IMG/VR virus record: IMGVR_UViG_2681813234_000008 | Span: 1-13,625 of that record | Strand: one strand, 5' to 3' | Length of the DNA: 13,625 nucleotides | DNA from: a virus | Lineage: Duplodnaviria > Heunggongvirae > Uroviricota > Caudoviricetes | Part shown: in pieces, positions 75-12,658 of the stretch | Numbering within the stretch: the first letter of the stretch is position 1 | Layout: each line of letters begins with the position of its first letter | Made by a program: the position numbers and the translations under genes | The notes under the pieces: model-generated | Database searches by the model: none | Told to the model about the DNA's origin: nothing | The model's input: the letters and a program-made list of their open reading frames with translations, nothing else

Positions 75-1361
75 TTACCCCGCTTTCTTATGGGGCATGC
101 ATGGGACACTTTCAGATAGTCTTCTGTTAAGAAGTTCTATCTGTTCGTGATTGTTGTCTTTCATCCATGCTCCGTAAACATTGAATACCATTTGTGCGTT
201 TGTGTGGCCCATCTGGCTTGCGATAAAACTAGGATTAGCTCCTGCGGCAAGTGACCAGCATGCATAGGTATGCCTGGATTGATACGATTTTCTGTGTCTC
301 AGACCTGCGCGTTTTAAGATACTTGTCCATGACTCCCTGATGGAGTCAACCTTATAGTGCGGTCCGGAAAACTGCCGCTGTTTTATTACCTGAGGACTAA
401 AAACAAAAGTGCATTTATGCACAGTACTTCTCCCATATTCCCTCTGCTTTACCTCTACAGAATGCTGTTTTCCAAGCATGGTCATTTCCGCTTGGCTTTT
501 AAGAGCATCAATAGCTGGTTGAACTAGATGAATCGTTCTTCCGGTACCAGCATCAGTTTTTGGTGGAGTGAATTCGCCTAGTTTTGTATAATTCCGGCGG
601 ATGGTTATAGTCCTCGCTTTAAGGTCTATATCTTCCCAGGCCAGTGATACCAGCTCCCCGTGACGAATACCTGTGTATACAGCGATAATCCACAGGTTTT
701 TTGTTTGTTGATGACGGCAAGCCTCAATAAAACGAATAAATTCGTCACGGGTGAGGGGATCTGGTTCTATCCTGGACTTTTTTAATGGTGTCAGACCGTT
801 AAATGGATTTCCTGATGTATAACCATTATCTGTTGCAAATTGAAACATTCCAGCTATGGTTGTCATATAGTAGTTTACTGTGACCACTGAGCGTCCTTTT
901 ATGGAAGAAATTTTTCCGTTAGAAAGCTTTTGATAACCGGTCAACAGATCTCTCCTTACGAAAAGCAAATCCTCTTTTGTTACAGATGAAACCAGTCTTT
1001 TTTCACCTAACATTGGCAACATGTTTTTAATTACTGACTGGTAACGGTTAAGTGCATTTGCACAAATCTCTATTTTCTTCAGTTCAAGCCATCTTTCCGA
1101 AAGTGCTTTAATGGTTATCTCTCTTTTCCCCAGACCAAAGTGTTTCAGGTTAGGGGACTCAGGGAACTGTGCTGCATAGTCGAAACTCCCCATTCTTATT
1201 GCAAAACAAACGGAAGTGCGGAGGTCACCTGCGATTTTCCGGTTTTTGGCGGTGTCAGGAACACCGAGGTTTTCTCTGACACGTTTGCCGTTATAGTGAA
1301 ACCATATGCGGAGTGATCCGCCATGATTTTCAACGCCTGTTGGGTATGATGTATTACTCAT
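75..1361 (-). CDS. int: Tyrosine recombinase (phage integrase)
   Basis: 428-aa ORF with C-terminal catalytic signature (RHTYA, GHTNAQMVFNVYGAW with putative catalytic Tyr) and an N-terminal arm-type region (GSLRIWFHYNGKRVRE). Strong SD (GGAGG) 5 nt upstream of the ATG at 1361. Confidence 0.85.
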   Translation of the reverse strand: MSNTSYPTGVENHGGSLRIWFHYNGKRVRENLGVPDTAKNRKIAGDLRTSVCFAIRMGSFDYAAQFPESPNLKHFGLGKREITIKALSERWLELKKIEICANALNRYQSVIKNMLPMLGEKRLVSSVTKEDLLFVRRDLLTGYQKLSNGKISSIKGRSVVTVNYYMTTIAGMFQFATDNGYTSGNPFNGLTPLKKSRIEPDPLTRDEFIRFIEACRHQQTKNLWIIAVYTGIRHGELVSLAWEDIDLKARTITIRRNYTKLGEFTPPKTDAGTGRTIHLVQPAIDALKSQAEMTMLGKQHSVEVKQREYGRSTVHKCTFVFSPQVIKQRQFSGPHYKVDSIRESWTSILKRAGLRHRKSYQSRHTYACWSLAAGANPSFIASQMGHTNAQMVFNVYGAWMKDNNHEQIELLNRRLSESVPCMPHKKAG

Positions 1362-5697: not shown

Positions 5698-5728
5698 TCA
5701 ATTATAATTGATAGTCAAGTATGATTTA
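5698..5728. promoter_or_regulatory. Operator-like 14-bp perfect palindrome TCAATTATAATTGA (5698-5711) plus adjacent half-site TCAAGTA (5715-5721)
   Basis: Palindrome read directly from the sequence. It sits between the repressor stop and the start of the 172-aa HTH gene and matches the site family in the repressor/cro intergenic region. Confidence 0.45.
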
Positions 5729-6211
5729 GTCTTTTTGATTGAGTTTTTGCGTGATTAGCAAGATGTTTTTTGAGTGTTCTTCCAGAAGATTTTTTGCAAA
5801 ATCCAACACCTTTACCCTCTCTTTTGTGGGTAAATTCGCAAATATTTCAAATAAATAGCTTGTATCCTCAATGATTGTTGGATCTATAGATTCAATAATA
5901 CCTCGTATCAGTTTGTTGCTCATTGAATCAAAAAGAGTTTCTCCATTCTCCCGGGTAAGTGTGTACTTAGGTTTTTCTGTGTTTCCATTTAAAAGCCACT
6001 GTACGTCGCACTGTAAGAGTTCTGATAATTTCAATAGCTTATCGCTAGTTATGCTTGTCTTTCCTTTCTCCCACAAAGATACAGCAGCCATTGATACCCC
6101 CATTGCTTGTGCCAGCTTTAATTGACTTAAACCAAGTTCTTTTCTGCGTGACAGAATCCTGTGCCCCATTGAGAGTGGGGAAGACTGACATGACTTTAGT
6201 TTTGTATCCAT
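5726..6211 (-). CDS. Prophage repressor, XRE-family HTH, no recognisable S24 peptidase domain (CI analog)
   Basis: N-terminal HTH (LGLSQLKLAQAMGVSMAAVSLWEKGKTSITSDKLLKLSELLQCDVQWLLNG). Transcribed divergently from the Cro-like gene. Track ORF trimmed to the ATG at 6211, which has a GAGGG SD. The C-terminal 90 aa show no Ser/Lys autopeptidase motif. Confidence 0.7.
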   Translation of the reverse strand: MDTKLKSCQSSPLSMGHRILSRRKELGLSQLKLAQAMGVSMAAVSLWEKGKTSITSDKLLKLSELLQCDVQWLLNGNTEKPKYTLTRENGETLFDSMSNKLIRGIIESIDPTIIEDTSYLFEIFANLPTKERVKVLDFAKNLLEEHSKNILLITQKLNQKD

Positions 6212-6291
6212 ATTGCCCTCAAGTATACTTGATAGTAAGATTGTGTTGTAATTCCTGTTGCTAAGCTTAATCAATTAATGTTGAGGTCTCA
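6212..6291. promoter_or_regulatory. Divergent immunity promoter/operator region with two 14-bp sites, TCAAGTATACTTGA (6219-6232) and TCAATTAATGTTGA (6271-6284)
   Basis: The first site is a perfect palindrome and the second is a 12/14 match to the 5698 palindrome. Each abuts the SD of the gene on its side. -10-like hexamers (TATACT, TAAGAT) are present, but promoters are not mapped. Confidence 0.5.
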
Positions 6292-6531
6292 ATGATAAAG
6301 ATTAGTGCAATTAAGTTTTATGGTTCGCAAAGGGCGATTGCTCAATCACTGGGGATTAGCGAGCAAGCTGTTTCTCAATGGCCAGAACTCATTCCTAAAG
6401 GTGCAGCTCTGGAGCTTGAGAAACTCACTGATGGCGCTTTGAAGTGCGATCTGAACCTGTACAAGAACCGCTCGCGCAAAAACAAGCGTGAATTGCACCC
6501 AAGCTTAGCGCACACGGGGGAGGAGAAGTGA
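6292..6531 (+). CDS. Cro/YdaS-like small DNA-binding regulator
   Basis: 79-aa ORF with the YdaS/Cro-type motif GSQRAIAQSLGISEQAVSQW ... PKGAALELEKLTDGALKCD. Divergent from the repressor; GAGG SD. Confidence 0.7.
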   Translation: MIKISAIKFYGSQRAIAQSLGISEQAVSQWPELIPKGAALELEKLTDGALKCDLNLYKNRSRKNKRELHPSLAHTGEEK

Positions 6532-6851
6532 TGGGCGTGTACGTTGATCGTAGAGAAATACTTCTTGATTGCGTGCAGATAGACATGCCCTCGGCTTATA
6601 GCTCAGCAGATGCTGAGTGGATTAAGCAGCAGTTACTTAGCCTGACACTCACGGCACGACAAAAAGCCATCCAGCGTTATGGCGTTGTGTATCAGGAGGC
6701 ATTTGAGGCCGAACCCATTTCGTACCGTAAGGAGAACCGGGCAAGGCATGAAGCAAACACAAGGCTTCGCCTGTTTGTGAGAAATCAGGGCAGAGCTTTA
6801 CAGGGGTATGCCGCCGAACCTCCCCTGGCTGGAACGCAATCGCGATCCTGA
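6531..6851 (+). CDS. Hypothetical protein (106 aa) in the CII position, Arg-rich C-terminus
   Basis: ATG overlaps the cro stop (TGATG) with a GGAGGAG SD upstream. No recognisable HTH, so a CII-like role is a positional guess only. Confidence 0.5.
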   Translation: MGVYVDRREILLDCVQIDMPSAYSSADAEWIKQQLLSLTLTARQKAIQRYGVVYQEAFEAEPISYRKENRARHEANTRLRLFVRNQGRALQGYAAEPPLAGTQSRS

Positions 6852-6935
6852 TTGTTTCGGGTTTGAAGGTACCCGAACAGAAGCAGGCTTAAAGGTGCCT
6901 GTTCAGGTTGGCAACCAACTGACCCAATTCCTCAT

Positions 6936-6960
6936 GCGTACTAGGTAAGTAGTACGTTTT
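6936..6960 (+). terminator. Weak intrinsic-terminator-like hairpin
   Basis: Stem CGTACTA / TAGTACG with loop GGTAAG, followed by TTTT. AT-rich stem, so stability is modest. Lies about 85 nt after the 106-aa gene. Confidence 0.3.
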
Positions 6961-6963
6961 TAT

Positions 6964-7017
6964 GGGGAAGAGGGAAAGGGGGGAGGGGGGGGATTGGGTG
7001 CAGGGGTAGGAATAGGG
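6964..7017. repeat. G-rich polypurine tract with runs G4, G3, G6, G8, G3, G4, G3
   Basis: Read directly: GGGGAAGAGGGAAAGGGGGGAGGGGGGGGATTGGGTGCAGGGGTAGGAATAGGG. The first 30 nt are pure purine. It sits inside a 428-bp intergenic region. Confidence 0.9.
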
Positions 7018-7279
7018 ACTTTTCCAACAGGAGAGAGCCATTGGTTAAGTAGATCACTGTCTTAAGGGCGCAATTTAAAAAAACGCCTGTATCAGCAAGA
7101 TAGTACAAGGCGCTCAGGCGCTGAGAAACGAAAAAGGGTTCTTCCTGGAAGAGTGTTTTTCAGGGGAACTGAATCTGAAGGGAGGCTGGCAGCCTTTGGG
7201 GAGGCCACCAGCCATGTGAGGGGGAATCCATGAAAACCACATCACAAAATTATTATCTCATCAGCACTGGAGCAAAACA

Positions 7280-8932
7280 ATGGAGCTGACGATCACGCCG
7301 AATTTTGCACAGGAACGAGCGTTAAACATGTTGCGTCGTGACTGGAAGGCAAATGACACCTTCATGGTGTATTCGCCAACTGGTAGCGGTAAAACCGGTT
7401 TGGCCGCTTTCATCGTTGCAGGGTTTGTCAGCCGTGGTATGCGCGTTCTGTTTTGTGCACCGTACACTATCCTGATTGGTCAGACGGCTAATCGCTTCGT
7501 GGAGTACGGGTTACCGGAGGATGAAATCGGTTATATCTGGGCGGATCACCCGAACTACGATCCGGACCGGAAAATTCAGATTGCCAGCGCCGACACGCTT
7601 ATTCGTCGTGTTTTTCCTGAAAATATTGATCTGCTGATTATCGACGAAGCACACCTGCGTAAAAAACGCATCCTGAAGGATATCGAACGTCTGCGCGGCA
7701 AAGGCGTAAAGGTGATTGGCCTGTCGGGTACTCCGTTTTCCCCGTTCCTGGGCAAATACTATGACCGACTAATTAAACCGACCACCATCGGCGAGTTAAT
7801 CCAGCGTGGCGATCTGAGTAAATACGAATTTTATGCGCCAACAAAGCCGGATCTGAAAGGCGTAAAAACCAAGTCTTCACTTGAGTACGGCAACGATTAT
7901 AACGAAGCTCAACTGGCTGAAATCATGTGCGGCTCTACGCTGGTGGGCGACATCGTACAGAACTGGCTGGAGAATGGCCGGGATCTGCCGACAATCGCGT
8001 TCTGCGTCAACGTAGCCCATGCTAATTTTCTGACAATCCAGTTTAACCAGGCTGGCATTAACGCTGAGGTCATGACCGCCAACACGCCAGTGGATGAGCG
8101 TCAGACCATCATTCACCGCTTTGAAACTGGTGCAACGAAAATCATCGTTAGTGTGGGCGTTCTGGTGGCTGGCTTCGATAGTGACGTTCGTTGCATCATC
8201 TACGCCAGGCCAACAAAAAGTGAAATTCGCTGGCTGCAGGCGATTGGGCGCGGCCTGCGCACAGCGCCGGGTAAAGAATCTTGTCTCATATTCGATCACA
8301 GTGGCACCGTACACCGCCTCGGTTACCCGGATTCTATCGAGTATGACGATCTCCCCGGTAAGTCTGATGGCATGGAGGAAAGTGCGCGCCGTGCAGCTGA
8401 GGAGCGGGCCGAAAAACTCCCCCATGAATGTTCTCAATGCCACTACATGAAACCCGCTGGTGTCTACGTCTGCCCGAAATGCGGGCATAAGCCGTTGGGT
8501 GGTGAGGATGTCGATACCGATACCGGGCGCAAACTTAAAAAGCTGGGTAAAAATCAGCATCTATCGACAAAGGCAGAGAAACAGGCTTGGTGGAGCCAGA
8601 TCAAATTTTATCAGCGCCAGCGCGTATCGCAGGGGAAAAAGCCCGTTAGTGATGGCTGGTGCGCTCACATTTTCCGGGAGAAGTTCGGCGAATGGCCGGA
8701 TAACCTGAGTGATTTCCCGATGGAAATTACCCCGGAGGTAAGCAACTACATCAGATACAAACTCATCAGGTTTGCGAAAGGGCAAAAACGCCCCCCTCAA
8801 CCACAGACAGAATCTCATCATGCAGGCGCATTGCCGCTAGGTTGTGCCGCAATTTACGAGCTCCCTGAGAACTGCCCGACTAAGGCAATTATCAACGCCA
8901 AACAGCAACTTCAGAAAAATGTAGTGGTGTGA
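7280..8932 (+). CDS. Superfamily-2 DEAD/DEAH-type helicase with C-terminal zinc ribbon (replication module)
   Basis: Walker A SPTGSGKTG, motif II LIIDEAH, motif III LSGTP, motif VI QAIGRGLR, and a C-terminal CSQCHYMKPAGVYVCPKCGH. GGAG SD upstream of the ATG. Confidence 0.85.
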   Translation: MELTITPNFAQERALNMLRRDWKANDTFMVYSPTGSGKTGLAAFIVAGFVSRGMRVLFCAPYTILIGQTANRFVEYGLPEDEIGYIWADHPNYDPDRKIQIASADTLIRRVFPENIDLLIIDEAHLRKKRILKDIERLRGKGVKVIGLSGTPFSPFLGKYYDRLIKPTTIGELIQRGDLSKYEFYAPTKPDLKGVKTKSSLEYGNDYNEAQLAEIMCGSTLVGDIVQNWLENGRDLPTIAFCVNVAHANFLTIQFNQAGINAEVMTANTPVDERQTIIHRFETGATKIIVSVGVLVAGFDSDVRCIIYARPTKSEIRWLQAIGRGLRTAPGKESCLIFDHSGTVHRLGYPDSIEYDDLPGKSDGMEESARRAAEERAEKLPHECSQCHYMKPAGVYVCPKCGHKPLGGEDVDTDTGRKLKKLGKNQHLSTKAEKQAWWSQIKFYQRQRVSQGKKPVSDGWCAHIFREKFGEWPDNLSDFPMEITPEVSNYIRYKLIRFAKGQKRPPQPQTESHHAGALPLGCAAIYELPENCPTKAIINAKQQLQKNVVV

Positions 8933-8937
8933 GTTTT

Positions 8938-9906
8938 ATGAAAACAGTAGATGCTGCGAAAGGCCGCTGGCCTGAAATTTTAGAGCATTTTGGTCTGCCA
9001 CCGATAACTGGAAAAAATCACTATAAAGGAGAATGCCCTGTATGCGGTGCGCGCGGAAAGTTGCGAATTGATGACCGTGACGGGCGTGGAACGTGGATTT
9101 GTACTTGCGGCAGCGGTGACGGTATGAAGCTTGTCACCCTGACACAGGGAAAACCATTCAATGAGGTTTGTAGGGAAATAGACCACCTGATCGGTAATGA
9201 TTTTCAGCGTGTAAAAATCCCGGTCAGCAGCAGCGCTACCAGCCTGCGTACAAAGGTTCTGAATAAGTTCGCGAAGCTGCAGCCGTTACGTGGCACTTCT
9301 GGTGCTGCGTATCTCAATGCGCGCGGCATTTTCAGTCTGCCGCTTGAAGCGATCCGTTTCAACGATAAGCAGCGCCATGCCGGGAGGGTGTATCAGTCGC
9401 TTTATTCCCTCGCCACCGATGATAAAGGGGAACTGTGCTATCTGCATCAGACATTACTCGATGGCCCCAAAAAAGCAGATATCGGTGCCAGTGCAAAGCG
9501 CCAAAAATCCCTGCAGGAAGATAACTATCTTGATCACGCCCGTTCAGTAGCGATCCGGATGTTCCCGGTAGCCAGCACACTTGGCATCGCCGAAGGCATC
9601 GAAACGGCTCTGTCAGCGCACCAGATTTACAACGTAAACACCTGGGCAACTATGACGGCTAACTTCATGAAGAAATTTCGTGTTCCGGCTGGCGTTAAGC
9701 ACCTGATTATTTTTGCTGACCGTGACGAAAACAGTGCCACCGGATTGGCAGCGGCCTATGAATGCGCTCATGCCAATCTGCTGGCAAAGAATGACCTGCA
9801 GCGCGTGAGCGTGTACTGGCCCGATCACGATGATTTTAACAACATGCTCATGAACGGCGATCAGGTTCGTGAGCTGGTTTTCTACAAGAAAAAGGCGACT
9901 GCGTAA
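8938..9906 (+). CDS. DNA primase, N-terminal zinc ribbon plus TOPRIM-like domain
   Basis: CPVCGARGKLRIDDRDGRGTWICTCG zinc-binding motif and an acidic TOPRIM-like motif LIIFADRDENSATG. Coupled to the helicase stop; the track start is a GTG at 8929, and the ATG at 8938 is preferred. Confidence 0.65.
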   Translation: MKTVDAAKGRWPEILEHFGLPPITGKNHYKGECPVCGARGKLRIDDRDGRGTWICTCGSGDGMKLVTLTQGKPFNEVCREIDHLIGNDFQRVKIPVSSSATSLRTKVLNKFAKLQPLRGTSGAAYLNARGIFSLPLEAIRFNDKQRHAGRVYQSLYSLATDDKGELCYLHQTLLDGPKKADIGASAKRQKSLQEDNYLDHARSVAIRMFPVASTLGIAEGIETALSAHQIYNVNTWATMTANFMKKFRVPAGVKHLIIFADRDENSATGLAAAYECAHANLLAKNDLQRVSVYWPDHDDFNNMLMNGDQVRELVFYKKKATA

Positions 9907-10766
9907 TGCGTACAGATAACAACGAACATAAAGCACTATTCACCATCCCGACGGCAGCGCATAGCTCCGCCCTGGCAAACATCAAGCCTCTGCCTGAGCA
10001 ACAGAGAATCACCGGGCATAAACAGACCGATGCCTATCTGTGGGTACTGGAGGTCATCCGCCTGAACGAACCGGCACATCTGGACGCTGCAGAAGCAGCG
10101 CTGGAGAAAATTAAAATCTCTCCAAAAGAGGCCGAGGAGCGGTATTCCCGTTATCTGCTGGCGAATGGCTGTGATCCTTTCCAGGCAGCTTTCGGTACTA
10201 TCGGTATGGATAATCCAGCGAGAGCCATTGAAAATGCGCGTAAGAACATCAAGAAAGCTGCTGATGTTCGCGCTACGTTCGGCAGCTATGAGGCTGCGAT
10301 GGAGGACGTAGAGGCCGAGCGAGTGATCAGGTCTTCCCAAAAATTTACTGATGATTACCTGTGGGGCTGGACCGCAGACGAAAAGAGAGACGGAAGCATT
10401 AACGGCAGTCGTATGAATGAAATTGATGATCAGCGTCGCGCATATGTTGATGGCTATCGTGACGTTCTGCCAGAGCCTCATACACTGTCAGATGTTGTTC
10501 GTGAATTTGTTTACTGGGACTGGCTTTACAACGTTCGCCGTACTGCTGGCCAGGAACTCGGCTACGACTTTGGTTATTCCGAACACCATGAGTCTGTATA
10601 CGACCGTGAGCGATACCTGGAAAAATTACTGGCAACCATCAAACCGGTGACACGCGCTGAAGCTGTGGAGGTGTGCCGCTGGTTTCTGGCAAGCGGAAAG
10701 GACGAATACATGGAAGACAACGGGGCGGCAGTCATTCTTAATCTGGTTGGAGAGTGCGAACAATGA
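9906..10766 (+). CDS. Hypothetical protein (286 aa)
   Basis: ATG overlaps the primase stop (TAATG). Codon usage matches the replication module. No recognisable domain. Confidence 0.6.
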   Translation: MRTDNNEHKALFTIPTAAHSSALANIKPLPEQQRITGHKQTDAYLWVLEVIRLNEPAHLDAAEAALEKIKISPKEAEERYSRYLLANGCDPFQAAFGTIGMDNPARAIENARKNIKKAADVRATFGSYEAAMEDVEAERVIRSSQKFTDDYLWGWTADEKRDGSINGSRMNEIDDQRRAYVDGYRDVLPEPHTLSDVVREFVYWDWLYNVRRTAGQELGYDFGYSEHHESVYDRERYLEKLLATIKPVTRAEAVEVCRWFLASGKDEYMEDNGAAVILNLVGECEQ

Positions 10767-11900: not shown

Positions 11901-11930
11901 TTGACCAGACACATTGTCCGGGGCTATATT
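11901..11930 (+). promoter_or_regulatory. Candidate late promoter pR' (-35 TTGACC, 18-bp spacer, -10 TATATT)
   Basis: Near-consensus sigma-70 hexamers 5 nt after the Q stop, followed by short hairpins and an intrinsic terminator about 75 nt downstream. Confidence 0.45.
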
Positions 11931-11990
11931 CCTCACGCGCCAGCAAAATCTGGCGTCGGGATTGGCGTCCCGGATGAAAAAGGCGACAAC

Positions 11991-12012
11991 AGACGCGCCA
12001 GCGTCTTTTTTG
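11991..12012 (+). terminator. Intrinsic terminator (tR'-like)
   Basis: Stem AGACGC / GCGTCT with loop GCCA, followed by TTTTTT. Confidence 0.5.
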
Positions 12013-12169
12013 TTGTCGTTTGCACTGTCACATCTCAATGGTGGGCTGTGTGGGGGCGGAGCGATCCGCGCCGGTTCCTTTTTCCCGGTTACGCCAACCC
12101 TGCACAGTTCACCACCATACTGATTGGCGTCAGCAGTGGTGATGATTCACATAGAAAAAGGATCATCCT

Positions 12170-12658
12170 ATGGCTATTCAAATCTCAGTTGAAACTCTTT
12201 CCCCGATCACCCATAACCAAATCCCTGTCATTACTACCGAGCTTTTGGCACAACTTTATGGCACCGAAACTAATAACATCAAAGTGAACTATACACGCAA
12301 TGCCGAGCGTTTTGTTTGTGGGAAACACTACTTCAAATTGGAAGGGGCTGAGTTGCGGGAATTTAAGAACAAGGTTACTCAAAGTAACTTAGTTGCACCG
12401 CGTACAAAGCACCTCATCCTCTGGACAGAACGCGGAGCAGCCCGTCACGCCAAAATGCTGGAAACCGATCAGGCGTGGGAAGTGTTCGAAAAACTGGAAG
12501 ACTGTTATTTCAGCCAAAAACAACCACCAGCAGCACAAAACACCCCAACCCAAAATGATGGATGCGCATTACTGATCCACTTCGATAAACACGGTCAGGT
12601 CGACTTCACGGAAAAACTACCCGCCGATGCGATGGTATGCACTCTGGAACGGTTTTAA
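12170..12658 (+). CDS. ORF6N-domain protein (antirepressor-like N-terminal domain family)
   Basis: Pattern LAQLYGTETNNIKVNYTRNAERFVCGKHYFKLEGAELREFKN ... LILWTERGAARHAKMLETDQAW is typical of ORF6N/KilA-N-like phage proteins. AGGA SD 7 nt upstream. Confidence 0.65.
   Translation: MAIQISVETLSPITHNQIPVITTELLAQLYGTETNNIKVNYTRNAERFVCGKHYFKLEGAELREFKNKVTQSNLVAPRTKHLILWTERGAARHAKMLETDQAWEVFEKLEDCYFSQKQPPAAQNTPTQNDGCALLIHFDKHGQVDFTEKLPADAMVCTLERF

What the first reader, a model, noticed from the sequence alone, without database searches (positions are those of the whole stretch)
6852..7279. Long intergenic region with a G-quadruplex-capable polypurine tract including a G8 homopolymer
A 428-bp non-coding gap separates the immunity genes from the replication genes. 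It contains a 54-nt G-rich tract at 6964-7017, which is rare in enterobacterial DNA, plus several short inverted repeats. This is where an origin, an antitermination site or a regulatory RNA might lie. The G8 run is also a possible slipped-strand hotspot that could modulate downstream replication-gene expression.
Basis: seen in the sequence. Interest (0 to 1): 0.5.

Follow-up and report, generated by a model that had tools for sequence, protein, structure and literature searches.

The report
Conserved G-run element beside phage replication genes
The G-rich stretch is a real, strongly conserved non-coding signal that always lies just upstream of this prophage's helicase and primase genes. Its core, two long G-runs a few bases apart, has the same design as the element that primes DNA replication in animal mitochondria, so it is most likely part of the phage's replication start site.

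Summary
6852-7279 is non-coding apart from a 19-codon leader ORF. 6964-7017 is a 54-nt tract with 35 G, the only canonical G4 motif in the window.

The tract is under selection: 96.6% mean pairwise identity among 56 distinct homologues, against 79.6% at helicase third-codon positions. A pair of G>=5 runs 1-3 nt apart is kept as far as Xenorhabdus.

The G8 is not conserved. Relatives carry G6-TAA-G6, so the slippage idea is weak.

The tract always lies between an uncharacterised small gene (phrog_852) and a RadD-like SF2 helicase plus toprim primase (72/72 loci). It is always on the sense strand.

The same G6-N1-3-G6 design recurs in unrelated phages inside replication-initiator genes, next to AT-rich DNA and iteron-like repeats. 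There it is read in all three frames, so the constraint is on the DNA. It is also letter-identical to mitochondrial CSB II (C6TTAC6; human G6AG8).

Best reading (about 0.4): part of the module's origin or priming region, working as a transcription-dependent R-loop / hybrid-G4 element. Rivals are a transcription attenuator and a Rho-loading site for antisense transcripts. Nothing here is tested experimentally.

The parts
6528..6851 (+). phrog_852 gene (107 aa, uncharacterised; Arg-rich helix YRKENRARHEANTRLRLFVRN). It always lies immediately upstream of the element.
   Evidence: PHROG 852, E=1e-37, with no Pfam or NCBIfam hit. All database homologues are named 'hypothetical'. The model is three helices at pLDDT 67, with no fold match. 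It is followed by the tract and the helicase in 72/72 loci that have room.
6856..6877 (+). Hairpin A: stem TTCGGGT/ACCCGAA, loop TTGAAGGT
   Evidence: Conserved 8-nt loop with covarying stems across 35 distinct instances. Six of 7 pairs change on both sides, and 0/500 shuffles reach the observed score.
6882..6903 (+). Hairpin B: stem AGCAGGC/GCCTGTT, loop TTAAAGGT
   Evidence: Same evidence as hairpin A. There are 1-3 copies per locus. The window holds no further hairpin copy.
6936..6962 (+). Palindrome GCGTACTAG-GTAAG-TAGTACGT followed by T5 (terminator-like)
   Evidence: The terminator scan hits it. The palindrome sequence (TGTACTAG..CTAGTACA) is kept in diverged relatives, but the T-run is not.
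6964..7017 (+). G-rich tract; its core is G6-A-G8 at 6978-6992 (G6-TAA-G6 in homologues)
   Evidence: G4Hunter 2.22. 96.6% mean pairwise identity against 79.6% at helicase third-codon positions. A G>=5-N1-3-G>=5 pair is present in nearly all of 96 distinct gap sequences from 109 loci. RNAfold with a G4 term gives -22.3 kcal/mol against 0.0 without it.
7019..7028 (+). Invariant CTTTTCCAAC directly after the last G-run. The T4 can pair with GGGAAAGG at 6972-6979.
   Evidence: 96.9% mean pairwise identity. Kept in relatives whose helicase is 75-80% identical. The pairing appears in the fold.
7038..7057 (+). Conserved box CCATTGGTTAAGTAGATCAC, containing a GATC site (7052-7055)
   Evidence: 94.3% identity. 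Recognisable in Xenorhabdus loci, and duplicated in L015.
7077..7112 (-). A7 followed by a second copy of the palindrome motif (TGTATCAG..TAGTACA). On the minus strand it reads as a hairpin plus T7, so it is terminator-like.
   Evidence: Read directly from the sequence. The motif is conserved in the alignment. The only Rfam signal is a weak sub-threshold Esr41 hit.
7130..7161 (.). A5-hairpin-T5, a possible bidirectional terminator
   Evidence: MFE folds of both strands; 92% identity.
7170..7279 (+). Conserved helicase leader, also shared by Fels-1-type relatives. It includes the hairpin GGCTGG..CCAGCC at 7184-7213.
   Evidence: 93-96% identity even in loci that share nothing else of the gap. 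The leader hairpin is 98% identical.
7230..7289 (+). 19-codon leader ORF (MKTTSQNYYLISTGAKQWS) with Shine-Dalgarno GAGGGGG. Its stop overlaps the helicase ATG at 7280.
   Evidence: Present in 82 of 96 distinct sequences. Variation is 0.077 at third codon positions against 0.033 at the others.
7280..8932 (+). SF2 helicase, RadD/YejH-like
   Evidence: Pfam ResIII and Helicase_C. PDB RadD 6jde at E=1e-19, with weak matches to UvsW, RecQ and Rad25. NCBIfam RadD, plus weak RecG and PriA.
8929..9906 (+). Toprim / zinc-ribbon primase
   Evidence: Pfam Toprim_3, Zn_Ribbon_Prim and DUF7146. PHROG 510 'DNA primase'.

Best explanation
The G-rich tract is a cis-acting DNA element of the phrog_852 / SF2-helicase / primase replication module, and most likely part of its replication origin or priming region.

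Proposed mechanism:
1. Rightward early transcription (cro, then phrog_852, then onward) runs into the tract, whose G-rich strand is the non-template strand.
2. The paired long G-runs, helped by the flanking G3-4 runs, hold the nascent G-rich RNA on the C-rich template. The result is a stable R-loop or DNA:RNA hybrid G-quadruplex, as at mitochondrial CSB II.
3. That opens the duplex and/or leaves an RNA 3' end near the conserved T4.
4. The RadD/PriA-like branched-DNA helicase and the primase, encoded just downstream, use this structure to start replication with host proteins.
5. The flanking palindromes and the GATC box would give specificity and timing.

Shown:
- The tract is conserved and non-coding.
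- It is linked to the module and always on the sense strand.
- It can form a G4.
- The same motif recurs at origin-like sites elsewhere.

Inferred:
- That it is the origin.
- That R-loops or G4s form in vivo.
- That the phage proteins use them.
For: 1. Purifying selection. The tract is 96.6% identical against 79.6% at helicase third-codon positions. The gap as a whole is more conserved than either flanking gene.

2. Depth of conservation. A G>=5-N1-3-G>=5 pair lies 34-161 nt after the phrog_852 stop in almost all of 96 distinct gap sequences from 109 loci. These include Xenorhabdus loci with only 66-69% helicase identity, where the rest of the gap no longer aligns.

3. Linkage. phrog_852, tract and helicase occur together in 72/72 loci with room. 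The immunity region upstream can differ, as in phage Fostie. A 42.9-kb circular copy of such a phage shows no other replication gene in PLSDB's incomplete gene table.

4. Independent origin context. The consensus 15-mer G6TAAG6 lies inside replication-initiator genes of unrelated phages. These belong to several PHROG families: O-like, DnaD-like loader, primosomal and replisome organizer, often upstream of DnaB-type helicases.
   - It is translated in all three frames: PPLPP 20, PLTP 16, PPYPP 5. The constraint is therefore on the DNA.
   - It is followed by AT-rich DNA: 63% against 39% upstream, p=9e-7.
   - It is followed by repeats: 29 against 4 repeated 7-mers, p=3e-6.
   - The same holds with any 1-3-nt spacer.

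5. Design identity with CSB II. Gecko CSB-2 is AAACCCCCCTTACCCCCC (PMC6295329). G6AG7 and G6AG8 are the commonest human variants (PMC5027508). The function of CSB II in hybrid-G4/R-loop primer formation is established (PMC3488243, PMC4176368).

6. Strand. The G-rich strand is the sense strand wherever the tract is present among the 109 loci.

7. Helicase type. It belongs to the RadD/RecG/PriA/UvsW branched-DNA group, not to the hexameric replicative helicases.
Against: - The gap has no iteron array and no AT-rich unwinding element: GC stays at 45-57%. It does not look like a classical theta origin.
- The initiator-embedded motifs differ in context. They have an upstream C-run that this family lacks, and there the G-rich strand is the template strand of the surrounding gene. 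One shared mechanism is not guaranteed.
- The motif was the search key, and an unbiased sample of 8 related initiator genes showed a related motif in only 1.
- A terminator-like hairpin plus T5 lies just before the tract and would limit transcription into it.
- Fels-1-type relatives have a weaker G4-A-G5, and a Colwellia relative has none.
- E. coli RNA polymerase is not the T7-like enzyme for which CSB II termination was shown.
- The GC-skew turn at the element is confounded by the pL/pR divergence.
- There are no experimental data.
Confidence: 0.4

Rival explanations
1. Transcription attenuator of the helicase-primase operon. The hairpin plus T5 (6936-6962) and the G-tract plus T4 form a tandem stop or pause signal, as an RNA or hybrid G4 followed by U-rich RNA. 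This limits read-through from pR into the replication genes. Relief would come from an RNA-binding factor acting at the two TTAAAGGT-loop hairpins just upstream, possibly the Arg-rich phrog_852 protein. This would be a nut/tR1-like arrangement.
For: - A terminator-like site lies at 6936-6962.
- The hairpins have an invariant loop and covarying stems, the signature of a protein-binding RNA.
- The G4 is strongly favoured in RNA: -22.3 against 0 kcal/mol.
- CSB II itself acts by terminating transcription (PMC5027508, PMC4176368).
- The position corresponds to the delayed-early boundary of lambdoid phages.
- phrog_852 has an Arg-rich helix.
Against: - The T-run after the palindrome is lost in diverged relatives, while the palindrome sequence is kept. 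That fits a DNA site better than a terminator.
- No boxA and no second hairpin copy in a leftward operon.
- phrog_852 matches no antiterminator family or fold.
- An attenuator does not explain the same G-run pair beside iterons in other phages' initiator genes.
- This reading is compatible with the origin reading rather than exclusive of it.
Confidence: 0.25
2. Rho-loading (rut) site for leftward antisense transcripts. On the minus strand the tract is 54 nt with 35 C and 1 G, which is ideal for Rho. It would stop transcripts that start near the helicase leader from running back into phrog_852, cro and the immunity region.
For: - Composition.
- The minus strand over the tract is untranslated, with no codon periodicity.
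- A conserved extended -10-like TGAGATAAT (7260 to 7252, minus strand) and two minus-strand terminator-like hairpins suggest that leftward transcription exists.
Against: - rut sites are defined by composition and are usually poorly conserved. Here the non-G positions are also nearly invariant, and the specific two-long-run design is kept across genera.
- The putative antisense promoter lies inside the leader ORF, so its conservation is uninformative.
- Two intrinsic terminators already lie between it and the tract.
- This does not explain the motif in translated initiator genes.
Confidence: 0.12
3. Sequence-specific protein-binding site. A phage or host DNA-binding protein, for example the phrog_6204 HTH protein encoded at 9906-10766, reads the tract as duplex DNA, with no role for G4 or R-loop structures.
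For: - The non-G positions (AAGA, AAA, TAA, ATT) are almost invariant within Enterobacteriaceae.
- Palindromic sites flank the tract.
- An HTH protein is part of the module in many loci.
Against: - Across wider divergence only the G-run pair survives, and the spacer varies: TAA, TA, TTA, A, AAA, TTT.
- In unrelated phages with unrelated proteins the same design occurs with many spacers. That argues for a structural rather than a base-specific reading.
- The flanking palindrome type can be swapped while phrog_852 and the helicase stay the same.
Confidence: 0.1
4. Phase-variable homopolymer. Slippage in the G8 run modulates expression of the replication genes.
For: Some run-length variants exist among relatives: G7TAG7, G6TAG7, G7TAAG7, G7TAAG8.
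Against: - The runs are G6/G6 in the large majority.
- The G8 occurs only in this window and may be an error.
- The tract lies neither in a promoter spacer nor in an ORF, and it is about 290 nt from the helicase start.
Confidence: 0.03

Closest known systems
[quoted passage not shown]
   Same: - Two long G-runs separated by 1-3 nt on the non-template strand.
- The phage consensus G6TAAG6 is the exact complement of gecko CSB-2 (C6TTAC6). The window's G6AG8 equals a common human variant.
- A T-run follows.
- It lies next to replication functions.
- In mitochondria it forms a hybrid G4/R-loop that ends transcription and makes the replication primer (PMC3488243, PMC4176368).
   Different: - The host polymerase is the multisubunit bacterial RNAP, not a T7-like enzyme.
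- The phage tract carries extra G3-4 runs and flanking palindromes.
- No termination, R-loop or priming has been measured here.
- The resemblance may be convergent.
ColE1-type and T4 oriF/oriG R-loop origins
   Same: T4 also encodes an SF2 helicase (UvsW) that acts on such R-loops. The window's helicase has weak similarity to UvsW.
   Different: - No RNA II-like folded preprimer and no Rfam match.
- No dependence on RNase H or Pol I is known.
- The helicase is closest to RadD, not UvsW.
Lambda-type origins inside O-like initiator genes (iterons + AT-rich region + palindrome)
   Same: In unrelated phages the same G-run pair sits in exactly this layout, in the linker of O-like, DnaD-like or replisome-organizer genes.
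   Different: The window's module has no O-like initiator, no iteron array and no AT-rich block. The tract is intergenic and lacks the upstream C-run.
Lambda nutR-boxB / tR1 region
   Same: Hairpins with a conserved loop and covarying stems, followed by a terminator-like hairpin, lie downstream of cro-side early genes.
   Different: - An 8-nt TTAAAGGT loop rather than a GNRA-like pentaloop.
- No boxA and no nutL counterpart.
- No recognisable N protein.
- This concerns the hairpins, not the G-tract.
EBV oriLyt G4-associated R-loop
   Same: A viral lytic origin with a G4/R-loop element formed by a non-coding transcript (PMC12203722, listed; title and abstract only).
   Different: A eukaryotic herpesvirus, with unrelated proteins and sequence.

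Membership tests
Canonical intramolecular G-quadruplex motif | Four or more G3+ runs with loops of 1-7 nt, and a G4Hunter score above about 1.5 | tested here: met
   Nine overlapping motif matches at 6964-6986. G4Hunter is 2.22 over 54 nt. RNAfold with a G4 term predicts G4s at -22.3 kcal/mol. Folding in vitro or in vivo was not tested.
CSB II-type priming element | Two G-runs of 5 or more separated by 1-3 nt on the non-template strand of a transcript that enters the element | tested here: met
   G6-A-G8 in the window and G6-TAA-G6 in homologues, always on the strand of cro, phrog_852 and the helicase. The transcript itself is inferred from gene order and from a weak promoter-like site before cro.
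CSB II-type priming element | Transcription ends at or just after the G-runs, and the RNA primes DNA synthesis | not testable with these tools
   Needs Term-seq or 3' RACE, DRIP, and mapping of RNA-DNA junctions.
Iteron-type theta origin (lambda ori-like) | Array of three or more direct repeats (iterons) for an initiator | tested here: not met
   Only two-copy short repeats and inverted repeats were found in 6800-7320. The palindrome motif occurs twice, at 6936-6958 and 7088-7107.
Iteron-type theta origin (lambda ori-like) | Adjacent AT-rich unwinding region | tested here: not met
   GC is 0.45-0.57 in all 100-nt windows of the gap. Only short T5 and A7 runs occur.
Intrinsic (Rho-independent) terminator | GC-containing hairpin followed directly by a U-run, conserved as a structure | tested here: inconclusive
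   6936-6962 fits in the window. In relatives with 75-80% helicase identity the hairpin sequence is kept but the T-run is replaced by TGAATAAGG.
Lambda-type nut site | boxB hairpin with conserved loop and covarying stem | tested here: met
   Six of 7 stem pairs covary, 90.6% of cells are paired, and 0/500 shuffles reach the observed score. This applies to 6856-6903, not to the G-tract.
Lambda-type nut site | boxA, a second site in the leftward operon, and an N-type antiterminator | tested here: not met
   No other hairpin with this loop exists in the window. phrog_852 matches no antiterminator family or fold. boxA was looked for by eye only.
Rho utilisation (rut) site | An untranslated, C-rich, G-poor stretch of 50-80 nt or more on an RNA that is actually made | tested here: inconclusive
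   Composition is met on the minus strand (35 C, 1 G in 54 nt) and the strand is not coding. The existence of a leftward transcript was not tested.
Known RNA families (Rfam 15) | Covariance-model match at the gathering score | tested here: not met
   No match in the gap at the gathering score. Only sub-threshold noise appears at E up to 10.
Phase-variable homopolymer (contingency locus) | Run length varies among close relatives and changes a promoter spacer or a reading frame | tested here: not met
   The runs are G6/G6 in most of the 96 distinct sequences, and variants are rare. The tract lies in neither a promoter spacer nor an ORF.

The most novel reading that the evidence does not exclude
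Pairs of long G-runs (G6-N1-3-G6) are a widespread, previously unrecognised building block of phage replication origins. They act as mitochondrial CSB II does, holding an RNA or opening the duplex through an R-loop / hybrid G-quadruplex so that replication can be primed. On this reading the mitochondrial CSB II mechanism is the eukaryotic survivor of a phage-type origin device, in keeping with the phage-like mitochondrial replication enzymes. The window's module, in which the element is followed by a PriA/RadD-like helicase and a primase instead of an iteron-binding initiator, would be a structure-started, initiator-less phage replicon.
Probability: 0.15. Interest if true: 0.9.

Novelty: new variant of a known kind. 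Interest (0 to 1): 0.66.

Why it matters
The origin of this common helicase-primase replication module of enterobacterial HK97-like prophages is not known. The papers retrieved describe such 'non-lambdoid' modules but name no origin.

If the G-run element is the start site, it gives a bacterial, genetically tractable model of R-loop / hybrid-G4-primed replication. It also gives a concrete sequence to mutate.

The wider pattern suggests a general origin component that has gone unnoticed. The same G-run pair sits beside iterons in many unrelated initiator genes, kept at the DNA level across three reading frames. A full-text search for the motif found only mitochondrial CSB-2 papers.

There is a practical point too. 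Short-read assemblies often break exactly at this tract, so prophages with this module tend to be split there.

Tried and rejected
- **Known RNA family.** None matches at the gathering score or at E up to 10.
- **Protein-coding gap.** The ORFs of 43-55 aa have no PHROG hit. The minus-strand ORFs over the tract show no codon periodicity, and nearly every substitution changes the amino acid. Rejected, although phage Fostie's record annotates two such ORFs.
- **Classical iteron / AT-rich origin.** Not found.
- **Which protein reads the flanking palindromes.** Loci L029 and L058 have essentially the same phrog_852 and a similar helicase but different palindrome types (GTACTAG..CTAGTAC versus TAGACGTCTA). 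Covariation therefore did not identify a binder.
- **phrog_852 function.** All homologues are 'hypothetical'. The AlphaFold model is three helices at pLDDT 67, and Foldseek against the PDB finds nothing with E below 1.
- **nutL-like second hairpin.** Absent.
- **GC-skew mapping of the origin** on a complete 42.9-kb circular copy. There is a turn at the element, but it coincides with the pL/pR divergence, so it is uninformative.
- **Separating the tract from the helicase or from phrog_852 through mosaic genomes.** They never separate (72/72).
- **Is the TAA spacer specific?** No. With the spacer left free, TAT, TA, TTA, TGT, TAA and others all occur in the same context.
- **Is the motif universal in that initiator family?** No. 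Only 1 of 8 unbiased relatives has a related motif.
- **Profile-based locus search with the initiator C-terminal domain.** It failed because the alignment was too diverse.
- **Literature on origins of such modules.** Nothing was found.
Full report
**Context**

The window is a lambdoid-type prophage segment.
- Integrase: 75-1361, minus strand.
- HTH repressor: 5726-6274, minus strand.
- P22-Cro-like gene: 6292-6531.
- Small gene of PHROG family 852, function unknown: 6528-6851.
- The 428-bp gap.
- SF2 helicase: 7280-8932.
- Toprim / zinc-ribbon primase: 8929-9906.
- PHROG 6204 protein: 9906-10766.

A complete 42.9-kb circular copy of a related phage has HK97-type head genes and lambda-type tail genes. 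PLSDB's incomplete gene table shows no other replication gene.

**The observation**

The sequence is as described.
- 6964-7017 holds 35 G, 13 A, 5 T and 1 C.
- G6 is at 6978-6983 and G8 at 6985-6992.
- G4Hunter is 2.22 over the tract, and the 25-nt maximum is 2.72. The largest value in 300 shuffles of the window is 2.32.
- These are the only canonical G4 motifs in the window.
- With a G4 energy term, RNAfold gives the tract -22.3 kcal/mol. Without it the tract has no structure at all.

**Is the gap coding?**

No.
- Its ORFs of 43-55 aa have no PHROG match.
- The minus-strand ORFs that cross the tract vary equally at all three codon positions.
- One exception: a 19-codon ORF at 7230-7289 with a strong Shine-Dalgarno sequence ends 10 nt inside the helicase gene. 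It is kept in 82 of 96 distinct sequences and varies most at third positions.

**Conservation**

The gap is found in 80 of 5,426 complete E. coli genomes, in phages Fostie, YP3 and ENT39118, and in many Citrobacter, Enterobacter, Leclercia and Salmonella prophages. It is more conserved than the genes on either side.

| Region (56 distinct sequences) | Mean pairwise identity |
|---|---|
| G-tract | 96.6% |
| Helicase, 1st codon positions | 97.3% |
| Helicase, 2nd codon positions | 98.4% |
| Helicase, 3rd codon positions | 79.6% |
| Least conserved stretches of the gap | 80-84% |

The consensus is ATGGGGAAGAGGGAAAGGGGGGTAAGGGGGGATTGGGTG.AGGGG.AGGAATAGGG.CTTTTCCAAC.

The window is the only sequence with G6-A-G8 in place of G6-TAA-G6. 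The two have the same total length and differ at three adjacent positions. Its closest relative is a contig that breaks inside the tract and reads GAAG7ATT, so the G8 is a private variant or an error.

Across 109 loci with both flanking genes, a G>=5-N1-3-G>=5 pair lies 34-161 nt after the phrog_852 stop in nearly all. The spacers seen are TAA, TA, TTA, A, AAA and TTT. Fels-1-type relatives have G4-A-G5 instead. Xenorhabdus loci (helicase 66-69% identical) keep GGGGAAGAGGG and the G-run pair, while most of the rest of the gap no longer aligns. A Colwellia relative (54%) has none.

**Anatomy of the gap**

1. Two hairpins with an invariant TTAAAGGT loop and covarying stems (6856-6877, 6882-6903).
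2. A palindrome, TGTACTAG-N5-CTAGTACA, with T5 (6936-6962).
3. The G-tract.
4. An invariant CTTTTCCAAC.
5. A GATC-containing box (7038-7057).
6. A7 and a second copy of the palindrome motif (7077-7112).
7. An A5-hairpin-T5 (7130-7161).
8. A leader shared even with Fels-1-type phages (7170-7279).

The palindrome is conserved as sequence, not as a covarying structure, and its T-run is lost in diverged relatives. It therefore looks more like a DNA site than a terminator. In some lineages a different palindrome (TTTAGACGTCTAAA) takes its place while the G-tract stays.

**Linkage**

phrog_852, the tract and the helicase never separate (72 of 72 loci with room). The immunity region upstream can differ.

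**The same motif elsewhere**

About 24 of these belong to the family. Among the 99 other occurrences:
- 45 lie in ORFs of 150 aa or more on the opposite strand.
- 41 of these read the 15-mer as a Pro-rich peptide, in all three frames: PPLPP 20, PLTP 16, PPYPP 5.
- The ORFs sampled are replication initiators of several different families: HTH_36, DUF1376, and PHROGs annotated as O-like initiator, DnaD-like helicase loader, primosomal protein or replisome organizer.
- They often lie upstream of a DnaB-type helicase.
- The motif sits in the linker, between iteron-like tandem repeats and the C-terminal domain.

In 32 such loci the 40 nt next to the motif are 63% AT, against 39% on the other side (p=9e-7). 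The next 200 nt hold 29 repeated 7-mers, against 4 (p=3e-6).

With the spacer left free, the pattern C5-N1-4-G6-N3-G6 recurs in the same setting with T/A-rich spacers such as TAT, TA, TTA, TGT and TAA. Of 68 such loci, 51 lie inside long opposite-strand ORFs.

So the element is structural, and its constraint is on the DNA. It is not universal: of eight phages chosen only by homology of the initiator's C-terminal domain, seven had clear tandem repeats in the stretch before that domain (none was evident in Rhizobium phage RHph_Y25), and only one had a related motif.

**Link to mitochondria**

A full-text search for the 15-mer returned only vertebrate mitochondrial papers.
- CCCCCCTTACCCCCC is the core of CSB-2 in geckos and in other vertebrates.
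- G6AG7 and G6AG8 are the commonest human CSB 2 variants.
- At CSB II the G-rich non-template strand and the nascent RNA form a hybrid G-quadruplex / R-loop. This stops transcription near a T-run and yields the primer for DNA replication (PMC3488243, PMC4176368, PMC5027508).

The phage tract has the same strand relation to the early operon wherever it is present among the 109 loci, and a conserved T4 follows it.

**The helicase**

It is closest to RadD (PDB 6jde, E=1e-19). It has weak similarity to UvsW, RecG, PriA and Hef. These enzymes act on branched DNA and R-loops, not as replicative hexamers.

**Interpretation**

The tract is best read as part of the origin or priming region of this module, acting through an R-loop or hybrid G4 made by rightward transcription. 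I put this at about 0.4.

Points against:
- No iterons and no AT-rich block in the gap.
- The context and strand relation differ from the initiator-embedded motifs.
- A terminator-like site lies just upstream.
- There is no experiment.

Rivals:
- A transcription attenuator, possibly relieved through the upstream hairpins (0.25). This could coexist with an origin role.
- A Rho-loading site for antisense RNA (0.12).
- A base-specific protein site (0.10).
- Phase variation (0.03).

**Novelty**

No paper retrieved describes an origin for this module or a CSB II-like element in phage origins.

Noticed in passing
window 6856-6877 and 6882-6903: Two tandem hairpins with an invariant 8-nt loop (TTAAAGGT) and covarying stems. 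There are 1-3 copies per locus, directly after the phrog_852 gene, whose product has an Arg-rich helix. This looks like a protein-binding RNA site (boxB-like), but there is no second site elsewhere in the window and no recognisable N protein.
   Followed up: partly
window 7230-7289: A 19-codon leader ORF (MKTTSQNYYLISTGAKQWS) with a strong Shine-Dalgarno sequence. Its stop overlaps the helicase ATG, which suggests translational coupling. It is kept in 82/96 distinct sequences and varies most at third codon positions. L010 and L215 have GTG at the same position and were scored as lacking it, because only ATG starts were counted.
   Followed up: partly
window 7260-7252 (minus strand), 7161-7130 and 7112-7077: A conserved extended -10-like TGAGATAAT on the minus strand, followed by two minus-strand terminator-like hairpins with T-runs. 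This could be an antisense RNA of about 85-165 nt against the helicase leader, reminiscent of leader-peptide/antisense control of plasmid rep genes. The promoter lies inside the leader ORF, so its conservation proves nothing.
   Followed up: no
loci L020, L024, L052, L066, L067, L070, L075, L085, L099 (start in the tract); L231, L235, L269, L299 (end in it): Short-read contigs from isolate genomes break exactly at the G-run core. That is 9 of 80 loci from one side and 4 of 80 from the other, sometimes as the two halves of one genome (IMG 2791355272). L247 has an N inside the tract. The tract is a recurrent assembly gap, so run lengths in public assemblies are unreliable.
   Followed up: partly
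IMG/VR loci L112-L217 and L309-L409: C5+-N1-4-G6-N1-3-G6 next to AT-rich DNA and tandem repeats, inside replication-initiator genes of several families. It is read in all three frames. This may be a general origin element. A Faecalibacterium phage (Lagaffe) has the variant GGGGGATACCCCCATAACCCCC after GTAGACCAGA repeats.
   Followed up: partly
loci L029/L061 (gap 851 nt), L014; L058 and other Fels-1-type loci; L015, L017: Genes are inserted between the conserved element and the helicase leader. Some loci carry an HNH/NUMOD-type homing endonuclease (identified by eye). It is accompanied by a switch of the flanking palindrome to TAGACGTCTA in L029 and L061; L014 has both palindrome types. Others carry a protein of about 125 aa (MSxELKxKLIxLLEEQF...). 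The G-run element stays in place.
   Followed up: no
window 11924-12119: Rfam matches above the gathering score to isrK (79 bits), C4 antisense RNA (74 bits) and its a1/b1 targets. An ORF6N-domain gene follows at 12170-12658. This is a P1/P7 immI-like antirepressor control module, as in Gifsy-type prophages.
   Followed up: no
window 6972-6979 with 7018-7025: GGGAAAGG can pair with (A/T)CTTTTCC and so enclose the long G-runs. In diverged relatives the purine arm changes A to G (GGAGAAGG, GGGAGAGG) and still pairs with CCTTTTCC. This could be a hairpin-versus-G4 switch or a triplex-prone mirror. The changes are one-sided only, so support is weak.
   Followed up: no
locus L228 (NZ_CP083847.1, 42,856 bp): A record filed as a non-mobilizable Enterobacter asburiae plasmid is a complete circular HK97-like phage genome that carries this module and an integrase. 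It is probably an excised or replicating prophage.
   Followed up: partly
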